IMG/VR virus record: IMGVR_UViG_2744054854_000007
Direction: 5' to 3' (one strand)
Origin: a virus
Taxonomy: Duplodnaviria > Heunggongvirae > Uroviricota > Caudoviricetes
DNA: 44,225 nt
Each line of letters begins with the position of its first letter. Position 1 is the first letter of the stretch. The notes under the pieces are model-generated. The model was given only the letters and a program-made list of their open reading frames with translations. It had not been told where the DNA came from and made no database searches. Of the stretch, positions 17,422-23,708 are shown in pieces. The position numbers were made by a program, and so were the translations under genes.

Positions 17422-19055
17422 TTTTCCTCCGGATCGGTAATGGTCTGGCTCGCAAACTGGTCAGCCTGTGCCCAGCTCGGAAGCGGTAATCCGCGTTTAA
17501 GACATGACTCAATTTCTCTCTGGCGCTGATCAAGCACTTCTTCCCAGTCTTCACCGACGTTTTCACCCACCTCAATCTCGAGGGTGGAAAGTCCGGCATC
17601 CAGACCAAGAATGGCGCCTTTTTTCTCTGCAACCGGATCCACCCAGCCGCGCCCTGGCCCCATCCAGCGCGCGCGAGAATACGCGGCTCTGGCGTCAACA
17701 AAATCAGGTGCGCCTGCGGGCAGGGGTAAATCCTCATTGTCGTGAACTTCTTCAACAAAGGCGGTGAGAATGGGCTGAGCGAAGCCGGTAGAAAAATCGT
17801 CCCGGCGGCGAGTCAGTGTTTTCCATGCCTCCAGCAACGAGGAGCGTGCAGAACTGTAGTTAACGTCAGACCAGTCCTGGGTGACCTGCTGTGGGGACAA
17901 CCCTGTTCCTGAAGAAAAATTACGGAGAACAGCAGATTCGAAGACTTCAAAATTGCTGTAGGGCCGCGCCGCGTTAACCGTCGTGATTTTCTCACCAGGA
18001 TAAAGAATGGGCATTCGGGCACCATTCTGAAGTGTCAGACGCCGATCGTTATGGAACTCAACACGCCCGTCCTGATAAGTGCCTAACTCCGACTCGTCAT
18101 AGGTCTCGCCCAGGGCAGACTGAACCATCGCAGGGTCATAGGGTGACTCAATGTAAGCGGCAAATATGGCATTAAGAATTGCTGCCTCAAGCTCACTCTG
18201 GTCATACTTCACCAGCATTTTCAGACGCTGAATAACCGGAGTCAGGATGCCGTTACCACGGTGCTGCGCGCCACGCTCATGATCAAAATCGTGAACCACA
18301 TGCGGGCGGCCCCAGTCAGTTTCACGCGGGATACGCTGCCACGTCATGGTTTTAGCCCCGCTCCACCAGTCACCGATATGGGCCTCCCTGATGTGGTAAG
18401 CAACCGGCGCACCGTCCGCATCAATTTCAACGCCACCACGGACATTTGGCATATCGAAATTCTGCTGAGGATTACTGAGGCGGTCAGGATCGACAATCTG
18501 TACCGTGGTGGCGTAACGCCCTCTTCCGGGACCAAGCCTGTCAGTTCTGTACTGGAGAATGGCCAGAGCATCCCCGTCAATAAGCTTGTGACGAAATCCC
18601 AGGCGTAACATCTGCGACACGGTGAGTTTTCGTTCAACATCACAATACCGGCCAGGATCGTTACTCCAGGTCCGCCAGTGCCCGTCCAGTGCTTTTCCGT
18701 ACTCTTCCGCCCAGGACGCATCAAACGCCTTGTTTCCGGTGATCATTCTGAGAACACGGTAATCGGGTTTCATGATGGGGCGGAAGTTGGCACCAACCGC
18801 ATTATCCAGCAGACGTGTGACCGCACCGTTTGCCCAGCCGTCATTACGGACCAGATCGCGTGCGCGGGACACGATGCGATCCCGGTAAATGTTAATTTCA
18901 TTGTCCGGGGACCACAGCGCGGGTTGCCAGTTCGCCAGTTGATCGCTGAAAGAGTCAGCTGCGTCATAAGGTACGCGGCTCCCCCCCACCAGCATAGAGG
19001 GACGCTGCTGTCGCAACGGCTGCCCATCAGAGCCCAGTATCTGTACTTTATTCAT
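17418..19055 (-). CDS. Portal protein (lambda gpB family)
   Basis: 545 aa; between gpW-like and protease genes as in lambda. Confidence 0.8.
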   Translation of the reverse strand: MNKVQILGSDGQPLRQQRPSMLVGGSRVPYDAADSFSDQLANWQPALWSPDNEINIYRDRIVSRARDLVRNDGWANGAVTRLLDNAVGANFRPIMKPDYRVLRMITGNKAFDASWAEEYGKALDGHWRTWSNDPGRYCDVERKLTVSQMLRLGFRHKLIDGDALAILQYRTDRLGPGRGRYATTVQIVDPDRLSNPQQNFDMPNVRGGVEIDADGAPVAYHIREAHIGDWWSGAKTMTWQRIPRETDWGRPHVVHDFDHERGAQHRGNGILTPVIQRLKMLVKYDQSELEAAILNAIFAAYIESPYDPAMVQSALGETYDESELGTYQDGRVEFHNDRRLTLQNGARMPILYPGEKITTVNAARPYSNFEVFESAVLRNFSSGTGLSPQQVTQDWSDVNYSSARSSLLEAWKTLTRRRDDFSTGFAQPILTAFVEEVHDNEDLPLPAGAPDFVDARAAYSRARWMGPGRGWVDPVAEKKGAILGLDAGLSTLEIEVGENVGEDWEEVLDQRQREIESCLKRGLPLPSWAQADQFASQTITDPEEK

Positions 19056-19318
19056 CAGAATCTAAACCTCGCTGGTTTCCGGGGACGAGAGATAATCCCC
19101 AGTTGCGCCTGCAGAAGTTGAATCAGGGCCAGCAGATCAGCCAGGGTGCTTTGCTGATAGGACACTGATCGCGTCCCGTCTCCCTGCGTATAGGAAAACG
19201 AAACACCGTGGCTCCCGGTTGCTAAATCAATGTACGCCTGCTGAGCTTTCGCAAGCGCATCCCTGAGCTGATCGTCAGTCATTGCGCCGGCAAGCAGGCT
19301 GGTGTTCCGGTTGAACAT
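19055..19318 (-). CDS. Head-tail joining protein gpW-like
   Basis: 87 aa; C-terminus ...LALIQLLQAQLGIISRPRKPARF resembles lambda W ...[21 protein letters not shown] (memory). Confidence 0.65.
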   Translation of the reverse strand: MFNRNTSLLAGAMTDDQLRDALAKAQQAYIDLATGSHGVSFSYTQGDGTRSVSYQQSTLADLLALIQLLQAQLGIISRPRKPARFRF

Positions 19319-19326
19319 GATTTTCC

Positions 19327-21450
19327 TTATTTCGGCAGGAGTTGCGATATTCGCTTACGTTTGACCGGCGCTGGTTCTTCAATAACCGCACCCGGCAGCT
19401 CGTAATTGATTTTTTCTTCCTGTCCAACTGGCGCTGGCAGGAACTTATCCGGATCGGCTTCGAGGTTGGCGGCCCGGACGTTGAGTTTTAACCCCATATG
19501 TTTGAGACCGCACAGCGCGGCATAGCTGTAAACGAGGCAGTCAAGCGCTTCGTTAGCTCGTCCTGGTATTGCTTCCCAGATACTGTACCGCTGCCCGGAA
19601 ATGACTTTGTAAACCAGTCGCTCCGCCAGCAGCTGATTGAAGTACCCGAGATCGCGATCGTCAGGAAAATGCATATAACCCGCAGCGGCGGCGCCAGGTT
19701 TGGGTGGCTCAAGATGCAGGCGACCGCGTATCACGTCTTTCGCTGAGTTAACCCCCAGAATGACAGGGCGGAAACTGGCTTTGCTTTTCGATGATGGTCG
19801 TTTGGTCGGCCAGACAGGATTGCGTTTACCTCCCTGTGCAGACTCCCCCTTAATTGCCCAGACACGACGGCCAAGACGCTCTTTGGCGAATTCGTATACC
19901 TTCTGCGTATGGTGGCCACCGGAGTCCATGCACGTTGCCATGATATTCAGGCCGCGCCCGTCACCACGTCGCCAGATCTGTTTCAGGTATGCATCCAGTC
20001 GCTTCCAGGGTTCTTCCGTCTCAAGGTCACCATAAATAACGTCATGCGCGACCGACCACGATTCTTCATCTCTCCCCCAGCCGGTGATCGTAATTTCGAA
20101 GCGATCGTCCTGGGTATCAACTCCAGCTGTTAACAATGCCACCCCGTCCGGAACGACGGCCGGAAATATTTCCCGGCGCGCCAGCAGAACATCAACAGGG
20201 AGCTGTTTCCCATGATTAGGTCGGTGCGGAAGCCCCATCTGGGTATTCCACCACGCCTGTTCCTTATCCGGATCGCCCTTCGCATCGATATATTTTTTCG
20301 CAATATCCGACGGCTTATCTTTTTGCCAGGGGCTGAAAAGCTTGGATGCCTGGTACCCCGCGTGGTGGTTATCGACTGCCTCCTTTCCACAGGAGGGGCA
20401 GATTGCGCGATAGACCGCATGCCGTTCCGACTCTGACCATTGCCAGACCTTTTCAACGCTGCCCTCGTCTGCCGCCCGCCAGGCAAGGTCATAATCCATC
20501 AGCGGTGAGTGCCGCTCCCCGCAGCACTCAAATGGGCGCGTCTGATGCCATCGAATAGTTTGCAGAGCTCTGAGGCGCTGTCCTTCGGACCAGCCACTAC
20601 CACAGCATTCGCAATAGAGCATCGCCGATTTAGTCAGGTGTTTATCTCCCTCTTTCGGCCACTGAACGTGTTTGAAAAAGTCGGGGAACTGGCGGTGGCC
20701 ACAGTGCGGGCAAACCACAGATGCCCGGCGCTGATCGGAGTCGGCGTAGCTGTCAGCAATGCGGCTCTCATCCTCCACCGTCGGCGAACAGGCGCGTACA
20801 GACAGCCAGGTCAGGCCAAATGTCGCTGTACGCTCTTCGGCCAGCGCAATTGGATCGCCTTCGCGGGTTATCGGGTACTTGTCCACTTCATCCGCCAGCA
20901 GGACACGAATCGGACGACGCGCAAGGTTATCAGGGCTACCAGCACCCGCCAGCGCCAGAAATCCGCCAGTGAACGCCTTGTAAAGAATGGTTTCTTTCGA
21001 GCTTTTCTGTTTCGAATCACCGATGATTTTACGCAGTACCGGCGTCACCCTTACCAGCGGGCTAATACGCTCTTTCGAAAACTGTTCAGCGGCTTCTTCT
21101 TTCGGCTGCAGCAGCAGTATCGGACAAGGATCGAGGTGGGCAAAATAGCCAAAAAGGTTTTCCAGCAGTGCTGTCTTCATCAACTGGGTACAGCACATTA
21201 CAGTGATGATATGAACCCCGGACTCCGTCGCGGCAAGCATCGGTCCGCGGGCAATTTCTACCGTCGATGTTTCCCAGTTTCCCGAAGTGCTCCCAGCCTC
21301 TTTTGCCAGCTTACGATAGTCATCTGCCCACTGCGGCACACTGATACGCGGCGGGGGTGTCCAGCCTTTGCGGACGCTTAATTCAAGACGCTCAATCTTC
21401 TGCCGGGTTAAACTCTGGCTCTCCGAGGGCTGAGATGTGTTTGTGGACAT
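19327..21450 (-). CDS. Terminase large subunit (lambda gpA family)
   Basis: About 707 aa from ATG 21450 (track starts at TTG 21456); by-eye resemblance to lambda A through the central region (e.g. ...VCPHCGHRQF... vs ACPHCGEEQY); overlaps Nu1-like 3' end as lambda Nu1/A do. Confidence 0.85.
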   Translation of the reverse strand: MSTNTSQPSESQSLTRQKIERLELSVRKGWTPPPRISVPQWADDYRKLAKEAGSTSGNWETSTVEIARGPMLAATESGVHIITVMCCTQLMKTALLENLFGYFAHLDPCPILLLQPKEEAAEQFSKERISPLVRVTPVLRKIIGDSKQKSSKETILYKAFTGGFLALAGAGSPDNLARRPIRVLLADEVDKYPITREGDPIALAEERTATFGLTWLSVRACSPTVEDESRIADSYADSDQRRASVVCPHCGHRQFPDFFKHVQWPKEGDKHLTKSAMLYCECCGSGWSEGQRLRALQTIRWHQTRPFECCGERHSPLMDYDLAWRAADEGSVEKVWQWSESERHAVYRAICPSCGKEAVDNHHAGYQASKLFSPWQKDKPSDIAKKYIDAKGDPDKEQAWWNTQMGLPHRPNHGKQLPVDVLLARREIFPAVVPDGVALLTAGVDTQDDRFEITITGWGRDEESWSVAHDVIYGDLETEEPWKRLDAYLKQIWRRGDGRGLNIMATCMDSGGHHTQKVYEFAKERLGRRVWAIKGESAQGGKRNPVWPTKRPSSKSKASFRPVILGVNSAKDVIRGRLHLEPPKPGAAAAGYMHFPDDRDLGYFNQLLAERLVYKVISGQRYSIWEAIPGRANEALDCLVYSYAALCGLKHMGLKLNVRAANLEADPDKFLPAPVGQEEKINYELPGAVIEEPAPVKRKRISQLLPK

Positions 21451-21961
21451 GTTCAATCAGCACCTCTGTCATCCTGTCCGCCGGTACATCCAGATCAGCA
21501 GCCATTAGCGGCGCCACCCTGGACGGCCAGTTAAGCCAGGCATCACGCTGTTGGCGAAAGGCGTTGAATAAAACCTCCTCGGCTGCTGTCAGCTCAATAA
21601 GCTGGCCGCTGTCTTTTTCATACTGCAGCTTTGCCTGCAGGGCCATGTAATTCTCGCGGATACGTCCCGCTTCCTCTCTCGAAAGATCTGCCCCTTCAGT
21701 GAGCATTATCTGGCGGACAGTTTTATTGATTTCATCACCGTCATCATCGTTATCGCTAACGACGGGAGTTTTCTTTTTCTTCGCGTTCGAGGCGCGCGGG
21801 TCTTTGCCATCGCGGTTTTTCTTCAATGCCGCATCGCTGGCCTCTACGTCAATCAGGTCTCCGTCCATCACAATGAAGCGCCCGGCTTTAATCCACCGAC
21901 CAATTGTTTTGCGATCCACACCTGAATGTTGTGCGTACTGACTCTGGTTCATCGTGGTCAT
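21392..21961 (-). CDS. Terminase small subunit (Nu1-like, N-terminal winged HTH)
   Basis: 189 aa; N-terminal QYAQHSGVDRKTIGRWIKAG HTH resembles Nu1 N-terminus; position directly downstream of the cos-like repeat array. Confidence 0.65.
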   Translation of the reverse strand: MTTMNQSQYAQHSGVDRKTIGRWIKAGRFIVMDGDLIDVEASDAALKKNRDGKDPRASNAKKKKTPVVSDNDDDGDEINKTVRQIMLTEGADLSREEAGRIRENYMALQAKLQYEKDSGQLIELTAAEEVLFNAFRQQRDAWLNWPSRVAPLMAADLDVPADRMTEVLIEHVHKHISALGEPEFNPAED

Positions 21962-22108
21962 GGGACATCACCTGGGACATTTTCTGGGGTGGGACATTCG
22001 CCTGGGACATTTTTGCCATGTCCCACCAGAATGTCCCACTGGAATAAACTGGAATAGCCAGAGCTGGCGAGGTGTCCGTAATGATCGCCAGAGGTGGGAC
22101 ATGGGACA
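21961..22108. repeat. cosB-like array of TGGGACAT / ATGTCCCA octamers (candidate terminase small-subunit binding sites)
   Basis: Four direct copies at about 21961, 21973, 21990, 22003; two inverted at about 22018 and 22031; two more direct at about 22095 and 22102; abuts Nu1-like start. Confidence 0.6.
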
Positions 22109-22251
22109 CAAATCTGAAAGTTGTAGCTAGGAAAACACCGCGGCGCGCAATGCCCGTACCTTACAAAAGTCTCAGGAAGGACCCATTTTTTTATTGGCTT
22201 CGACCATTCGCTCCGACTATGATTATTCCTATTCAATACAAGGAGAATGTA

Positions 22252-22755
22252 ATGGGTAACAATATAATCAAAATAACTTTCGTAGCCGCAGTGCTGGCAT
22301 CACCAATTGCTCATGCCCAGTGGGTAACTAATACTGAAGATGACCTTTTCTCTGGTGGTAAGAAAGCAATGATGCTTGGCGAGGTTTCATCCGACAATGG
22401 CGCCATTGTGTTTGACTGCACTAAAGAAAAGCTATCGGCGGCATACGTTGAAATGGATAAAAGCACCGAATCACTATCAGAGGTACCAATGGACCTGATA
22501 ATGAAGGTCGACGGGAATACCGCAGTGAAGCTCGATGCTACCCTTTCAAGACGTAATGTTCAGAGCCTCCAGATTCAATCGGATGACGCGGACCAACTAA
22601 AAACAGTGCTTAAGCAGCTTCAGGGGGCGAAATCCAAAGTGTTAGTTGGTGTGCAAACAAAGGATGGCGGAAACCAGCATTCCATGTCAGCCAATGTTTC
22701 TGGATCGACAACTGCAGTAAACAGCTTCATAAAAGCTTGCGAAATTAACTTATAA
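22252..22755 (+). CDS. Secreted protein of unknown function (Sec signal peptide), candidate moron
   Basis: ATG 22252 with AAGGAG SD; MGNNIIKITFVAAVLASPIAHA/QW signal-like N-terminus; opposite strand to the flanking late genes. Confidence 0.6.
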   Translation: MGNNIIKITFVAAVLASPIAHAQWVTNTEDDLFSGGKKAMMLGEVSSDNGAIVFDCTKEKLSAAYVEMDKSTESLSEVPMDLIMKVDGNTAVKLDATLSRRNVQSLQIQSDDADQLKTVLKQLQGAKSKVLVGVQTKDGGNQHSMSANVSGSTTAVNSFIKACEINL

Positions 22756-22765
22756 GTTACTGCTT

Positions 22766-23404
22766 TTATTTTGCCGTCCTGATGGCTTCTGCTATCGCCT
22801 GATTTAAAGCAGACGGTAGCAGTGCGTTCGCCATGGTACGGGCCCTATCCATATACCCCAGCACTGGAGTCACAGGTAGCGCATCACCAAACCGGATCAA
22901 AAGCTTTGGAGAACGCTGTTTGCGTTTCGGTCTTCGCGTCCCGTTAGCGGAACGTTTGGCCCGTCGCTTCTTAGCTTTCATCGGCTTCTTACGCTGCCAG
23001 ACAGCGTTAACGCCATCAACCTCACCTACGAATACATTTTCCTTTGCTTTAAGCTGTGAGAGCTTATTACGCGGCATGTTGCCGTATTTGTTTAGCTTGA
23101 CGTTCTTGGGGTTCAATAGCGCTTGGCTATTGAGCTTATGCTCTCCACCTAACTCGAATGGTTCCAGATAACCAGCCGCGGTATCGCGGACAAAAACCTT
23201 TGCAGTCAGGTTGTTCTTCCTTGCCGCCACCGAACCAACTGATTTAACGGTAAACGGTGTCGGGCTCTCCAGATGTCGTTCGAACGCTGTTTTCTGTGCC
23301 GTTTCTATTTGACGAACAACTTTTGTCATAGCTAGTGCTGTAGCATATGGCACCTGCTTTTGTACCTTCTTTAATTGCTGAGAAAGGTCTTTGAGTGTTG
23401 CCAT
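22766..23404 (-). CDS. Hypothetical protein with highly basic Lys/Arg-rich segment
   Basis: Internal ATG 23404 (MATLKDLSQQLKK); 212 aa; ...KKPMKAKKRRAKRSANGTRRPKRKQRSPK... tract. Confidence 0.5.
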   Translation of the reverse strand: MATLKDLSQQLKKVQKQVPYATALAMTKVVRQIETAQKTAFERHLESPTPFTVKSVGSVAARKNNLTAKVFVRDTAAGYLEPFELGGEHKLNSQALLNPKNVKLNKYGNMPRNKLSQLKAKENVFVGEVDGVNAVWQRKKPMKAKKRRAKRSANGTRRPKRKQRSPKLLIRFGDALPVTPVLGYMDRARTMANALLPSALNQAIAEAIRTAK

Positions 23405-23425
23405 AAACGCTCCAGTGTACTGACA

Positions 23426-23449
23426 TAAAAAAACCGCCCGGAGGCGGTG
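23426..23449 (-). terminator. Rho-independent terminator (minus strand)
   Basis: CCGCC-cgga-GGCGG hairpin followed on the minus strand by a T7 run; 3' of acidic-protein gene. Confidence 0.6.
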
Positions 23450-23465
23450 CATTATGCTTATCGTT

Positions 23466-23708
23466 CTATTCTTGCTCCGAATCCGGGTCATCAAAAACAT
23501 TAATAGATAAGTAAACACACTCACCTATTTCCCATCCTTTCTTGCTAAGAATATCTTCAGGGGTAGTATCGGGAACATAGAAATAGTACTCATATACCAT
23601 ATCGCCTGAATGCCCTGTATTCTCCTCAAGGTCTTCAGGTGATAGAGGTATGGAATCCAACTCATCGTCAGTGAGTTCTAATTCAGTAGCAAGCGCTGAT
23701 TGTGACAT
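23466..23708 (-). CDS. Very acidic small protein (80 aa), unknown function
   Basis: ATG 23708 with AGGAGG SD; about 22 Asp/Glu vs 2 Lys; flanked by terminator-like hairpins on both sides and a ~230-bp non-coding leader. Confidence 0.55.
   Translation of the reverse strand: MSQSALATELELTDDELDSIPLSPEDLEENTGHSGDMVYEYYFYVPDTTPEDILSKKGWEIGECVYLSINVFDDPDSEQE

What the first reader, a model, noticed from the sequence alone, without database searches (positions are those of the whole stretch)
21961..22250. cos-proximal array of eight TGGGACAT/ATGTCCCA octamers abutting the Nu1-like start; candidate cosB, with possible cosN beyond
Seen in sequence: four direct octamers spaced 12-17 bp, two inverted copies, then two more direct copies, all within about 150 bp immediately upstream of the small-terminase gene (the first repeat overlaps its SD/start region). 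Established: in lambda, cosB with repeated Nu1-binding R elements lies between cosN and Nu1. Inference: these are small-terminase binding sites, with copy number and mixed orientation unlike lambda's three R sites. The GC-rich ACCGCGGCGCGCAATGCCCG at about 22136-22155 is a weak cosN candidate. The repeats also generate two spurious track ORFs.
Basis: partly seen in the sequence, partly recalled or inferred. Interest (0 to 1): 0.5.

Follow-up and report, generated by a model that had tools for sequence, protein, structure and literature searches.

The report
Eight-repeat packaging signal beside phage cos
The eight ATGTCCCA repeats are almost certainly the docking sites (cosB) where this E. coli prophage's small terminase binds next to the DNA-cutting site; this is a new recognition sequence and layout for a well-known lambda-type packaging signal.

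Summary
Seven exact TGGGACAT/ATGTCCCA octamers and one variant (TGGGACAC) lie at 21961-22109. These are the only exact copies in the 44 kb window.

The genes read on the minus strand. The 12-mer GCATTGCGCGCC (22153..22142) is identical to the virion cohesive end determined for Serratia phage BZS1. It is conserved in at least 100 viral contigs and 27 Enterobacterales species. A lambda-type cosQ (GGGTCCT) lies 31 nt upstream of the nick.

Across relatives with the same cosN, the repeat sequence changes together with the N-terminal helix-turn-helix of the small terminase, in at least five classes. Natural domain mosaics show that the repeat follows the N-domain, not the C-domain.

The first repeat always starts at +46 to +48 from the end. 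The layout (2 direct, 2 inverted, 4 direct; start codon at +193) mirrors lambda R3/R2/R1 (+53, +114, +155; Nu1 at +191).

The differences from lambda are eight short sites, no IHF consensus, a different cohesive end, and a TerS that Pfam does not recognise.

A satellite-like E. coli island carries the same cos and array without a terminase.

TerS binding and this prophage's own ends are inferred, not shown. Verdict: a new variant of a known kind, of moderate interest.

The parts
22175..22184 (-). cosQ-like element GGGTCCTTCC. Its core, GGGTCCT, is at 22184..22178 and starts 31 nt upstream of the top-strand nick.
   Evidence: Lambda has GGGTCCT starting 30 nt before its nick. The element is conserved in nearly all loci that share this cosN. 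Feiss describes a 7-bp cosQ that is highly conserved among lambda-like phages (PMC4669245). The heptamer's identity as lambda cosQ is from my own knowledge plus its position.
22142..22153 (-). cosN cohesive-end sequence GCATTGCGCGCC, a predicted 12-nt 5' overhang. The inferred nicks lie between 22154/22153 (minus strand) and 22142/22141 (plus strand).
   Evidence: Identical to the annotated cosL of Serratia phage BZS1, which was determined from virion reads and PCR (PMC7556043). The 17-mer GGGCATTGCGCGCCGCG is present in at least 120 viral contigs.
22110..22141 (-). Conserved spacer between cosN and the first repeat, GCGGTGTTTTCCTAGCTACAACTTTCAGATTT. It occupies the position of lambda I2.
   Evidence: The segment from cosQ to +45 aligns with lambda: 56 of 93 columns identical, score 48 versus 13 +/- 7 for shuffles. 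It is largely invariant among 29 distinct relatives.
22095..22109 (-). cosN-proximal tandem pair GTGTCCCATGTCCCA, at +45 to +59 from the end. It is the positional equivalent of lambda R3.
   Evidence: In every specificity class the first repeat starts at +46 to +48. The lambda R3 core is at +53, and R3 spans bp 50-65 (PMC9026076).
22039..22094 (-). 56-bp spacer. It holds an invariant GATC (22083-22086) and two TATTCCAG direct repeats (22039-22057). No IHF consensus is present.
   Evidence: Alignment of 29 distinct sequences. A search for WATCAANNNNTTR with up to 1 mismatch has no hit in 21961-22200.
22018..22038 (+). Two inverted copies that read ATGTCCCA on the + strand, at 22018-22025 and 22031-22038 (+116 to +136). 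They are the positional equivalent of lambda R2, which is also inverted.
   Evidence: The lambda R2 core GGAAACG is at +114.
21961..22010 (-). Four direct copies of ATGTCCCA (+144 to +193). They form two copies of a roughly 30-bp unit, AAAATGTCCCAGGyGA(A)TGTCCCA. The last copy overlaps the TerS ATG. This is the lambda R1 position.
   Evidence: (family D2, spacing 30). Octamer columns are invariant in 56 of 62 cases versus 50 of 119 for the other cosB columns (Fisher p 5.6e-11).
21392..21961 (-). Small terminase (TerS), 189 aa. It has an N-terminal winged-HTH domain (about aa 1-50), a disordered linker and a helical C-terminal domain.
   Evidence: phrog_57, E 3.8e-36. Profile comparison (hhalign) to lambda Nu1 residues 2-33 gives 79% probability. 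In the AlphaFold2 model the N-domain has per-residue confidence (pLDDT) of about 80, and Foldseek finds Xis, BldC and gpNu1-type folds. No Pfam family matches.
19327..21456 (-). Large terminase (TerL) of the gpA family, the presumed cosN nickase and packaging motor.
   Evidence: Pfam GpA_ATPase E 2.2e-64 and GpA_nuclease E 2.1e-78.

Best explanation
The region 21961-22184, read on the minus strand, is the complete cos site of a temperate E. coli phage. It has lambda-type head and packaging genes and, by my reading of the ORF map, a contractile tail. The order is cosQ (GGGTCCT), then cosN (12-nt cohesive end GCATTGCGCGCC), then cosB. The eight ATGTCCCA octamers are cosB: the sites recognised by the N-terminal winged helix-turn-helix of the small terminase encoded immediately downstream. 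Inferred mechanism: TerS subunits bind the pair nearest cosN (+45 to +59) and the cluster near the gene (two inverted plus four direct copies, +116 to +193). They probably bring the two clusters together across the 56-bp spacer. This anchors the gpA-type TerL on cosN, 33 bp from the first site. TerL nicks both strands 12 nt apart, and the cosB-bearing end is packaged first, towards lower window coordinates. Packaging ends at the next cos, using cosQ and cosN. Shown here are the sequence anatomy, the identity of cosN to an experimentally determined end in a relative, the covariation of repeat and TerS N-domain, and the positional conservation. Inferred are physical TerS binding, stoichiometry, DNA bending, and the ends of this prophage's own virion DNA.
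For: (a) The cosN 12-mer is identical to the BZS1 cohesive end. (b) cosQ and the cosN flanks are homologous to lambda at the same spacing, while the cosB part is not. (c) In 66 distinct cos regions from viral contigs, the repeat motif tracks the TerS HTH class. The counts are 25/25 B-class with TGTCCCA, 24/25 A-class with GGTAACA, 8/8 C-class with GTTCGCA, 3/3 D-class with GTCCGCA and 1/1 E-class. An independent set of 27 species genomes gave the same result. (d) Natural domain swaps exist. L016, L026 and L062 share the window's N-domain (64-70% identity) but not its C-domain (17-18%), and they keep TGTCCCA. L104 and L051 share the C-domain (78-79%) but have an A-type N-domain, and they carry GGTAACA. 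(e) The first repeat starts at +46 to +48 in every class, and the order direct/inverted/direct and the positions parallel lambda R3/R2/R1. In lambda the cosN-cosB spacing is critical (PMC9026076). (f) Among 29 distinct B-type sequences, octamer columns are invariant far more often than spacer columns. (g) A satellite-like island keeps cosQ, cosN and a TGTCCCA array but has no terminase gene, as expected for a cis-acting packaging signal. (h) TerS is a phrog_57 small terminase with a wHTH-type N-domain. TerL is of the gpA family.
Against: There is no biochemical or genetic evidence for TerS binding in this or any B-type phage. No sequenced phage in the phage collection has this TerS type; the best hit is 33% identical. 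The virion ends come from a relative with a different cosB. TerS matches no Pfam family, and its similarity to lambda Nu1 is weak: BLASTP E 0.043, profile comparison 79% probability, all Foldseek E-values above 0.1. No IHF consensus lies between the two clusters, so the lambda bending mechanism cannot simply be transferred. TerS and the repeats are adjacent, so part of the covariation could reflect linkage. The domain mosaics and the satellite argue against linkage as the whole explanation.
Confidence: 0.85

Rival explanations
1. The octamers are mainly a regulatory operator. TerS or another protein would bind them to control transcription into the terminase gene or its translation, since the last copy overlaps the ribosome-binding site and start codon. 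They would not be a packaging recognition site.
For: The last octamer overlaps the ATG, and an AGGTG Shine-Dalgarno-like sequence lies between copies 7 and 8. In short-form relatives the third GGTAACA copy also overlaps the ribosome-binding site.
Against: No sigma-70-like promoter lies on the terminase strand within the array. The array keeps a fixed distance to cosN in all classes. The satellite-like island keeps the array next to cosN with no TerS gene to regulate. Autoregulation could still be a secondary role.
Confidence: 0.06
2. The repeats bind a protein other than TerS, such as a host nucleoid protein or another phage DNA-binding protein. Their association with TerS would then reflect only genetic linkage.
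For: Binding has not been measured. The repeats and the TerS N-domain coding region are adjacent and would be co-inherited.
Against: The motif follows the TerS N-domain across recombinants whose C-domains differ. At least five motif classes match five HTH classes in two independent data sets. A host factor would not change specificity between phages of the same hosts; A-type and B-type cos sites both occur in E. coli.
Confidence: 0.05
3. The phage packages by a headful (pac) mechanism, and the repeat array is a pac-type recognition region without a defined cohesive end.
For: Multi-repeat TerS binding regions are typical of some pac phages (my own knowledge). The ends of this prophage were not mapped.
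Against: TerL belongs to the gpA (lambda) family and is followed by gpW and a lambda-type portal. The exact 12-mer cohesive end of BZS1, the lambda-like cosN flanks and a cosQ are all present at lambda spacing.
Confidence: 0.02
4. The repeats are non-functional products of slippage or recombination in an intergenic region.
For: One relative (L069) carries an inversion between the inverted copies, which shows that the repeats do recombine.
Against: The octamers are conserved while the spacers diverge (56/62 versus 50/119 invariant columns). The same layout occurs in Kluyvera, Raoultella, Citrobacter, Salmonella and E. coli. Chance is excluded.
Confidence: 0.01

Closest known systems
Phage lambda cos (cosQ-cosN-cosB, with R3-I1-R2-R1) and its terminase gpNu1/gpA
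   Same: The order cosQ-cosN-cosB-terS-terL is the same. GGGTCCT lies about 30 nt before the nick, the end is a 12-nt 5' overhang, and the cosN flanks are similar. The first TerS site is at about +50, the middle site is inverted, and the start codon is at about +191-193. TerL is of the gpA family, with gpW and a lambda-type portal. TerS has a wHTH N-domain.
   Different: There are eight 8-bp sites (2+2+4) rather than three 16-bp R sites, and the site sequence is unrelated. No IHF consensus is present. The cohesive end is identical to lambda's at only 5 of 12 positions. TerS is not a Pfam Phage_Nu1 member. By my reading of the ORF map (tail genes were not searched against families), the tail module is contractile rather than lambda-like.
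Serratia phage vB_SspM_BZS1 and Citrobacter phage phiNP cos region
   Same: The 12-nt cohesive end is identical, and cosQ and the cosN flanks are conserved. TerS is homologous at about 33% identity. The first repeat is at +48 and the last repeat overlaps the ribosome-binding site.
   Different: Their repeat is GGTAACA, with 3 copies upstream (61 nt from cosN to ATG) and 4-7 further copies inside the TerS linker-coding region. The window has TGTCCCA, with all 8 copies upstream and none inside the gene.
Lambda versus 21 packaging specificity, and the N15 ('simple' cosB with rR2 inside the TerS gene) versus Monarch ('complex') dichotomy described by the Feiss laboratory (PMC4669245)
   Same: cosN and cosQ are shared while cosB and the TerS recognition helix are exchangeable. 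[quoted passage not shown]
   Different: This is a different cohesive-end family. At least five or six specificity classes exist rather than two or three. The in-gene copies are numerous (4-7) rather than a single rR2. None of this has been tested genetically.
BldC- and Xis-type small MerR-like wHTH proteins that bind arrays of direct repeats head to tail
   Same: These are the best structural neighbours of the TerS N-domain model (Pukovnik Xis, BldC, RacA, gpNu1 DNA-binding domain). They suggest a mode of cooperative binding to closely spaced direct repeats.
   Different: This is a fold-level resemblance only, with Foldseek E-values above 0.1. These proteins are transcription or recombination factors, not terminases.
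Satellite piracy of helper cos sites: P4 with P2, SaPIbov5, and the Rpp-encoding E. coli phage-inducible chromosomal islands (PICIs) (PMC6739421, PMC9026076)
   Same: An integrase/primase island in E. coli 2015C-4136CT1 carries cosQ-cosN at one end and no terminase.
   Different: The described Rpp-encoding islands lack a helper-like cosB and redirect TerS with Rpp. This island carries a helper-type TGTCCCA array and no Rpp-sized ORF after cos. Whether it is mobilised has not been tested.

Membership tests
Lambda-type cos site (cosQ-cosN-cosB) | Defined cohesive ends are generated at cosN (12-nt 5' overhang). | not testable with these tools
   The ends of this prophage's virion DNA cannot be mapped here. 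Indirect support: the 12-mer at 22153..22142 is identical to the cohesive end determined for BZS1.
Lambda-type cos site (cosQ-cosN-cosB) | A cosQ heptamer (GGGTCCT) lies about 30 nt upstream of the nick. | tested here: met
   GGGTCCT is at 22184..22178, 31 nt before the nick. In lambda it is 30 nt before the nick. It is conserved across relatives.
Lambda-type cos site (cosQ-cosN-cosB) | Repeated TerS recognition elements lie between cosN and terS, with the first at about +50 and a middle element in inverted orientation. | tested here: met
   Copies are at +46 and +53 (direct), +116 and +129 (inverted), and +145, +158, +175 and +187 (direct). The lambda cores are at +53, +114 (inverted) and +155.
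Lambda-type cos site (cosQ-cosN-cosB) | An IHF site (I1) lies between the R3 and R2 equivalents. | tested here: not met
   WATCAANNNNTTR with up to 1 mismatch has no hit in 21961-22200. This is a weak test, because IHF sites are degenerate.
Lambda-type cos site (cosQ-cosN-cosB) | The large terminase is of the gpA family, with lambda-type gpW and portal downstream. | tested here: met
   Pfam GpA_ATPase, GpA_nuclease, gpW and Phage_portal_2 all match.
Lambda-type cos site (cosQ-cosN-cosB) | TerS physically binds the repeats. | not testable with these tools
   Only comparative evidence is available: motif/HTH covariation.
[quoted passage not shown] | The 12-nt end closely matches GGGCGGCGACCT. 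| tested here: not met
   GCATTGCGCGCC matches GGGCGGCGACCT at 5 of 12 positions.
gpNu1 family of small terminases | Sequence membership (Pfam Phage_Nu1). | tested here: not met
   No Pfam family matches at E <= 0.01. BLASTP against lambda Nu1 gives E 0.043 over 31 residues. The protein belongs to phrog_57 instead.
gpNu1 family of small terminases | An N-terminal winged-HTH DNA-binding domain of the MerR/Nu1 type. | tested here: inconclusive
   Profile comparison (hhalign) gives 79% probability to Nu1 residues 2-33. A profile search of PDB sequences finds RppC and a TerS DNA-binding domain at E 0.05-0.09. In the AlphaFold2 model the N-domain has pLDDT of about 80 with a strand-helix-helix-wing-helix order. 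Foldseek finds 1j9i (gpNu1 DNA-binding domain) at probability 0.85 and target-normalised TM-score 0.56, but E is about 1.
BZS1/phiNP-type cos family (cohesive end GCATTGCGCGCC) | Identical cosN 12-mer, conserved flanks and a homologous TerS. | tested here: met
BZS1/phiNP-type cos family (cohesive end GCATTGCGCGCC) | The same cosB specificity (GGTAACA repeats). | tested here: not met
   The window has TGTCCCA and no GGTAACA copies in cosB.

The most novel reading that the evidence does not exclude
The array and the TerS N-domain form an exchangeable specificity cassette within a large, previously undescribed cos family of Enterobacterales and beyond. The family has an invariant cosN (GCATTGCGCGCC) and a lambda-type cosQ. 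At least six repeat/HTH specificities have been swapped onto a fixed scaffold: first site at +46-48, then inverted copies, then direct copies. The scaffold exists in two topologies: all sites upstream of terS, or the TerS DNA-binding-domain coding region sitting inside the array, with the sites written into the TerS linker as GNK, ANS or VRT peptide repeats. The eight sites would template a defined higher-order TerS assembly without IHF. One possibility is one wHTH per site in a tetramer of TerL1:TerS2 protomers, a stoichiometry I recall for lambda. Dedicated satellites would copy the array to be packaged.
Probability: 0.3. Interest if true: 0.65.

Novelty: new variant of a known kind. Interest (0 to 1): 0.45.

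Why it matters
Three reasons:

- It assigns a function to an unannotated 230-bp region and to a gene that RefSeq calls "hypothetical protein" in about 1% of complete E. coli genomes and in many other Enterobacterales.
- It provides a natural series of swaps between recognition domain and repeat, in at least five specificities and two array topologies on one conserved cosQ-cosN core. That is the kind of material that the lambda/21/N15 genetics had to build by hand. It could be used to work out how small terminases read DNA and how many sites an initiation complex needs when no IHF site is present.
- A defined cos with a simple 8-bp recognition word would be practical for cosmid or transduction tools, for predicting which prophages can package which satellites, and for setting genome starts in assemblies of this phage group.

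Tried and rejected
- Nucleotide searches of the phage collection with the 1.5-kb region found nothing in near or distant mode. Relatives were reached only by protein search and then by the cosN word.
- Pfam gave no family for TerS. A single-sequence search of solved structures gave only spurious low-complexity hits to RecA fusion constructs.
- An IHF site between the clusters was sought and not found.
- A promoter on the terminase strand inside the array was sought and not found. The only sigma-70-like site belongs to the opposite-strand neighbour gene.
- Rfam gave nothing: one microRNA hit far below threshold, over the inverted octamers.
- An iteron or replication-origin reading was considered and dropped. 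I did not test it separately. The array sits at a fixed distance from cosN in the packaging module, and its sequence tracks the TerS N-domain.
- I considered using contig termini at cosN as evidence for virion ends. I dropped this because the 17-mer used as the query spans the nick, so it cannot match contigs that end there.
- The full-length AlphaFold2 model is poor outside the N-domain (pTM 0.27), so nothing was concluded about the oligomerisation domain.

Full report
**1. Observation**

The window holds seven exact copies of TGGGACAT/ATGTCCCA. All lie between 21961 and 22102. Shuffles of the whole window give 1.39 copies on average, and none of 100 shuffles reached seven. An eighth, one-mismatch copy (TGGGACAC, 22102-22109) overlaps the seventh by one base. 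Seven copies within 150 bp has a chance probability of about 1e-20.

**2. Context**

The relevant genes are on the minus strand:

| Gene | Coordinates | Evidence |
|---|---|---|
| Small terminase (TerS) | 21392-21961 | phrog_57, E 3.8e-36; no Pfam family |
| Large terminase (TerL), gpA family | 19327-21456 | GpA_ATPase 2.2e-64, GpA_nuclease 2.1e-78 |
| gpW | 19055-19318 | Pfam gpW |
| Lambda-type portal | 17418-19055 | Pfam Phage_portal_2 |
| S49 protease | 16555-17421 | Pfam Peptidase_S49 |

The element is an E. coli prophage. The 1.5-kb region matches 59 of 5,426 complete E. coli genomes, at 99% identity or more in 34 of them. The cos region alone matches 63 genomes, including strain HS. RefSeq annotates the TerS as "hypothetical protein" and places no gene in the 290-bp gap.

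**3. cosN and cosQ**

No phage record resembles the region at the DNA level. By protein, the nearest are Serratia phage vB_SspM_BZS1 and Citrobacter phage phiNP, at about 33% TerS identity.

- The BZS1 record starts with an annotated 12-nt left cohesive end, GCATTGCGCGCC, 62 nt before its TerS start.
- That end was obtained with PhageTerm on virion reads and confirmed by PCR and sequencing across the prophage junction (PMC7556043).
- The window's minus strand reads exactly GCATTGCGCGCC at 22153..22142, within a conserved GGGCATTGCGCGCCGCG.
- Thirty-one nt upstream of the nick lies GGGTCCTTCC (22184..22175). Lambda has GGGTCCTTTCC starting 30 nt before its nick.
- The segment from cosQ to +45 aligns with lambda (56 of 93 columns identical; score 48 versus 13 +/- 7 for shuffles). 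The cosB segment does not (24 versus 19 +/- 9).
- The cohesive end itself matches lambda's at only 5 of 12 positions.

**4. The octamers as TerS sites: comparative evidence**

The 17-mer around cosN occurs in at least 120 viral contigs. A stricter word combining cosQ and cosN occurs in 27 species-representative genomes. Twenty-six are Enterobacterales; the remaining record is titled Vagococcus sp. WN89Y. From the viral contigs I extracted 66 distinct cosN-to-terS regions. The repeated 7-mer in each depends strictly on the TerS N-terminal HTH:

| TerS HTH class | Repeat | Regions matching |
|---|---|---|
| B: [DN]RKT[IV]xRW[IM]K | TGTCCCA | 25/25 |
| A: S[RK]KTVTxWK | GGTAACA | 24/25 |
| C: SDTLVR[RK]A | GTTCGCA | 8/8 |
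| D: DEKQVRR | GTCCGCA | 3/3 |
| E: one further class | GTGTGAA | 1/1 |

The genome set replicates this. It adds a class with GTGTCAA and a helix that differs from the GTGTGAA class.

Linkage alone does not explain the pattern, because TerS proteins are mosaics:

- L016, L026 and L062 share the window's N-domain (64-70% identity) but have an unrelated C-domain (17-18%). They carry TGTCCCA.
- L104 and L051 share its C-domain (78-79%) but have an A-type N-domain. They carry GGTAACA.

Among 29 distinct B-type sequences, octamer columns are invariant in 56 of 62 cases. Other cosB columns are invariant in 50 of 119 (Fisher p 5.6e-11). The sequences are related, so this p-value overstates independence.

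**5. Architecture**

[quoted passage not shown] Copies are listed by the start of the 7-mer TGTCCCA; the octamer begins one base earlier for direct copies.

| | First group | Middle group (inverted) | Last group | Start codon |
|---|---|---|---|---|
| Window | +46, +53 | +116, +129 | +145, +158, +175, +187 | +193 |
| Lambda CGTTTCC cores | +53 (R3) | +114 (R2) | +155 (R1) | +191 |

The array is thus an expanded version of the lambda "complex" cosB in position and orientation, not a departure from it.

- In every specificity class the first copy starts at +46 to +48. This fits the known sensitivity of lambda to cosN-cosB spacing (PMC9026076).
- The four proximal copies are two copies of a roughly 30-bp unit (family D2).
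- Unlike lambda, no IHF consensus lies in the 56-bp spacer. The spacer instead holds an invariant GATC and two TATTCCAG repeats of unknown role.

**6. Two topologies in the family**

- Long forms (179-269 nt from cosN to ATG) have 6-9 copies upstream and 0-1 in the gene.
- Short forms (42-62 nt) have 1-3 copies upstream and 4-7 copies inside the TerS gene at about +216 to +320. That stretch encodes the linker after the DNA-binding domain. These copies again run inverted first, then direct.

This parallels the complex (lambda, Monarch) versus simple (N15, with rR2 inside the TerS gene) dichotomy described by Feiss and colleagues (PMC4669245), but with many in-gene copies. The window is a long form.

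**7. The protein**

The TerS profile matches lambda Nu1 residues 2-33 at 79% probability in a profile comparison. It weakly matches RppC and a TerS DNA-binding domain among solved structures (E 0.05-0.09). An AlphaFold2 model has an N-domain with per-residue confidence (pLDDT) of about 80. Its order is strand, helix, helix, wing, helix, followed by a disordered linker and a helical C-domain. Foldseek places the N-domain with Xis, BldC, RacA and the gpNu1 DNA-binding domain (1j9i: probability 0.85, target-normalised TM-score 0.56). All E-values are above 0.1. The fold is consistent with a Nu1-like wHTH, but family membership is not established.

**8. Alternatives**

- No terminase-strand promoter lies in the array. 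The one sigma-70-like site (22194-22223, + strand) serves the opposite-strand gene 22252-22755.
- No RNA family matches.
- A regulatory role for the copy overlapping the ribosome-binding site and start codon is possible as an addition. It cannot be the main role, given the fixed distance to cosN and the satellite described next.

**9. A satellite-like island**

In E. coli 2015C-4136CT1, a roughly 16-kb island lies between rcnR and thiM. It encodes an integrase, a primase, an Icd-like protein, SSB and PerC-type regulators, and no capsid or terminase genes. It ends with GGGTCCTTCC, a cohesive-end-like GCATTGCGCGAG, and ten TGTCCCA-type copies from +47 to +215. No TerS-sized ORF lies in the next 1.85 kb. 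This is what a cis-acting packaging signal copied by a satellite would look like. It differs from the Rpp-encoding islands, which lack a helper-type cosB (PMC9026076). Mobilisation has not been tested.

**10. Verdict**

It is a lambda-type cos site with:

- a new recognition word (ATGTCCCA);
- eight short sites in a 2+2+4 layout;
- no recognisable IHF site;
- a non-lambda cohesive end;
- a TerS outside the Pfam Nu1 family.

It belongs to a broad family with exchangeable specificities. TerS binding, stoichiometry and this prophage's own ends remain inferred.

Noticed in passing
window 22194-22755 (+ strand): A 167-aa protein with a signal peptide (phrog_19473, function unknown) is encoded at 22252-22755. 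It has its own AAGGAG ribosome-binding site and a TTGGCT-18-TATGAT promoter at 22194-22223. It is transcribed away from cos and sits between the upstream gene (22766-23524, minus strand) and cosQ. BZS1 and phiNP lack it, and their cosQ follows the homologous upstream gene directly. It looks like a moron (an independently transcribed accessory gene) inserted at the genome end.
   Followed up: partly
L001/L002/L008 (A type), L014/L048/L119 (C type), L100/L120 (D type): about +216 to +320 from the cohesive end: In short-form relatives, 4-7 copies of the phage's own cosB motif lie inside the TerS gene, in the linker after the DNA-binding domain. They translate into peptide repeats: GGTAACA gives GNK, GCGAACA gives ANS or ANT, and GTTCGCA or GTCCGCA gives VRT. 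The DNA signal seems to dictate the linker sequence of the protein that reads it.
   Followed up: partly
L069 (IMG/VR contig), equivalent to window 21997-22031: One relative carries an exact inversion of the 35-bp segment between the outer inverted octamers (TTCTGGTGGGACATGGCAAAAATGTCCCAGGCGAA becomes its reverse complement). This leaves the order and orientation of the octamers unchanged. It is evidence of recombination between the inverted copies.
   Followed up: no
L127 2501-2760 and L128 (E. coli 2015C-4136CT1, NZ_CP027550.1, about 1,658,000-1,673,600): An island with integrase, primase, Icd-like, SSB and PerC genes lies between rcnR and thiM. It ends in cosQ, GCATTGCGCGAG and ten TGTCCCA-type repeats, with no terminase or capsid genes. 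It is a candidate satellite that copies the B-type cosB rather than encoding an Rpp-like redirector.
   Followed up: partly
window 22039-22094: The spacer between the two octamer clusters holds a GATC (22083-22086) that is invariant in 29 distinct relatives. It also holds two TATTCCAG direct repeats 10 bp apart (22039-22057) that are conserved only in the TGTCCCA class. Their role is unknown. A Dam site or a second factor's site are possibilities.
   Followed up: no
window 21392-21961 and its homologues P0001-P0120: This small-terminase family has no Pfam domain. Sources name it 'hypothetical protein' in nearly all cases, across Enterobacter, Klebsiella, Raoultella, Citrobacter, Yersinia, Serratia and other genera. 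Only PHROGs (phrog_57) identifies it.
   Followed up: yes
L137, L138, L151 versus L046, L148: Two related TerS classes differ in the recognition helix (GMSRQALYxWE versus SRRAFYNWES). Their repeats differ by one base (GTGTCAA versus GTGTGAA). This is a possible minimal specificity switch.
   Followed up: no
L131 and L134 (Xenorhabdus vietnamensis): An A-type cos has both a long upstream array (7 GGTAACA copies) and 5 in-gene copies, 12 in all. It may be an intermediate between the long and short topologies.
   Followed up: no
L129 (record titled Vagococcus sp. WN89Y): A cos and TerS with the same octamer positions as the window's (TerS about 89% identical) sit on a 226-kb contig labelled as a Firmicute. 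All other carriers are Enterobacterales, so the record is probably mislabelled or contaminated.
   Followed up: no
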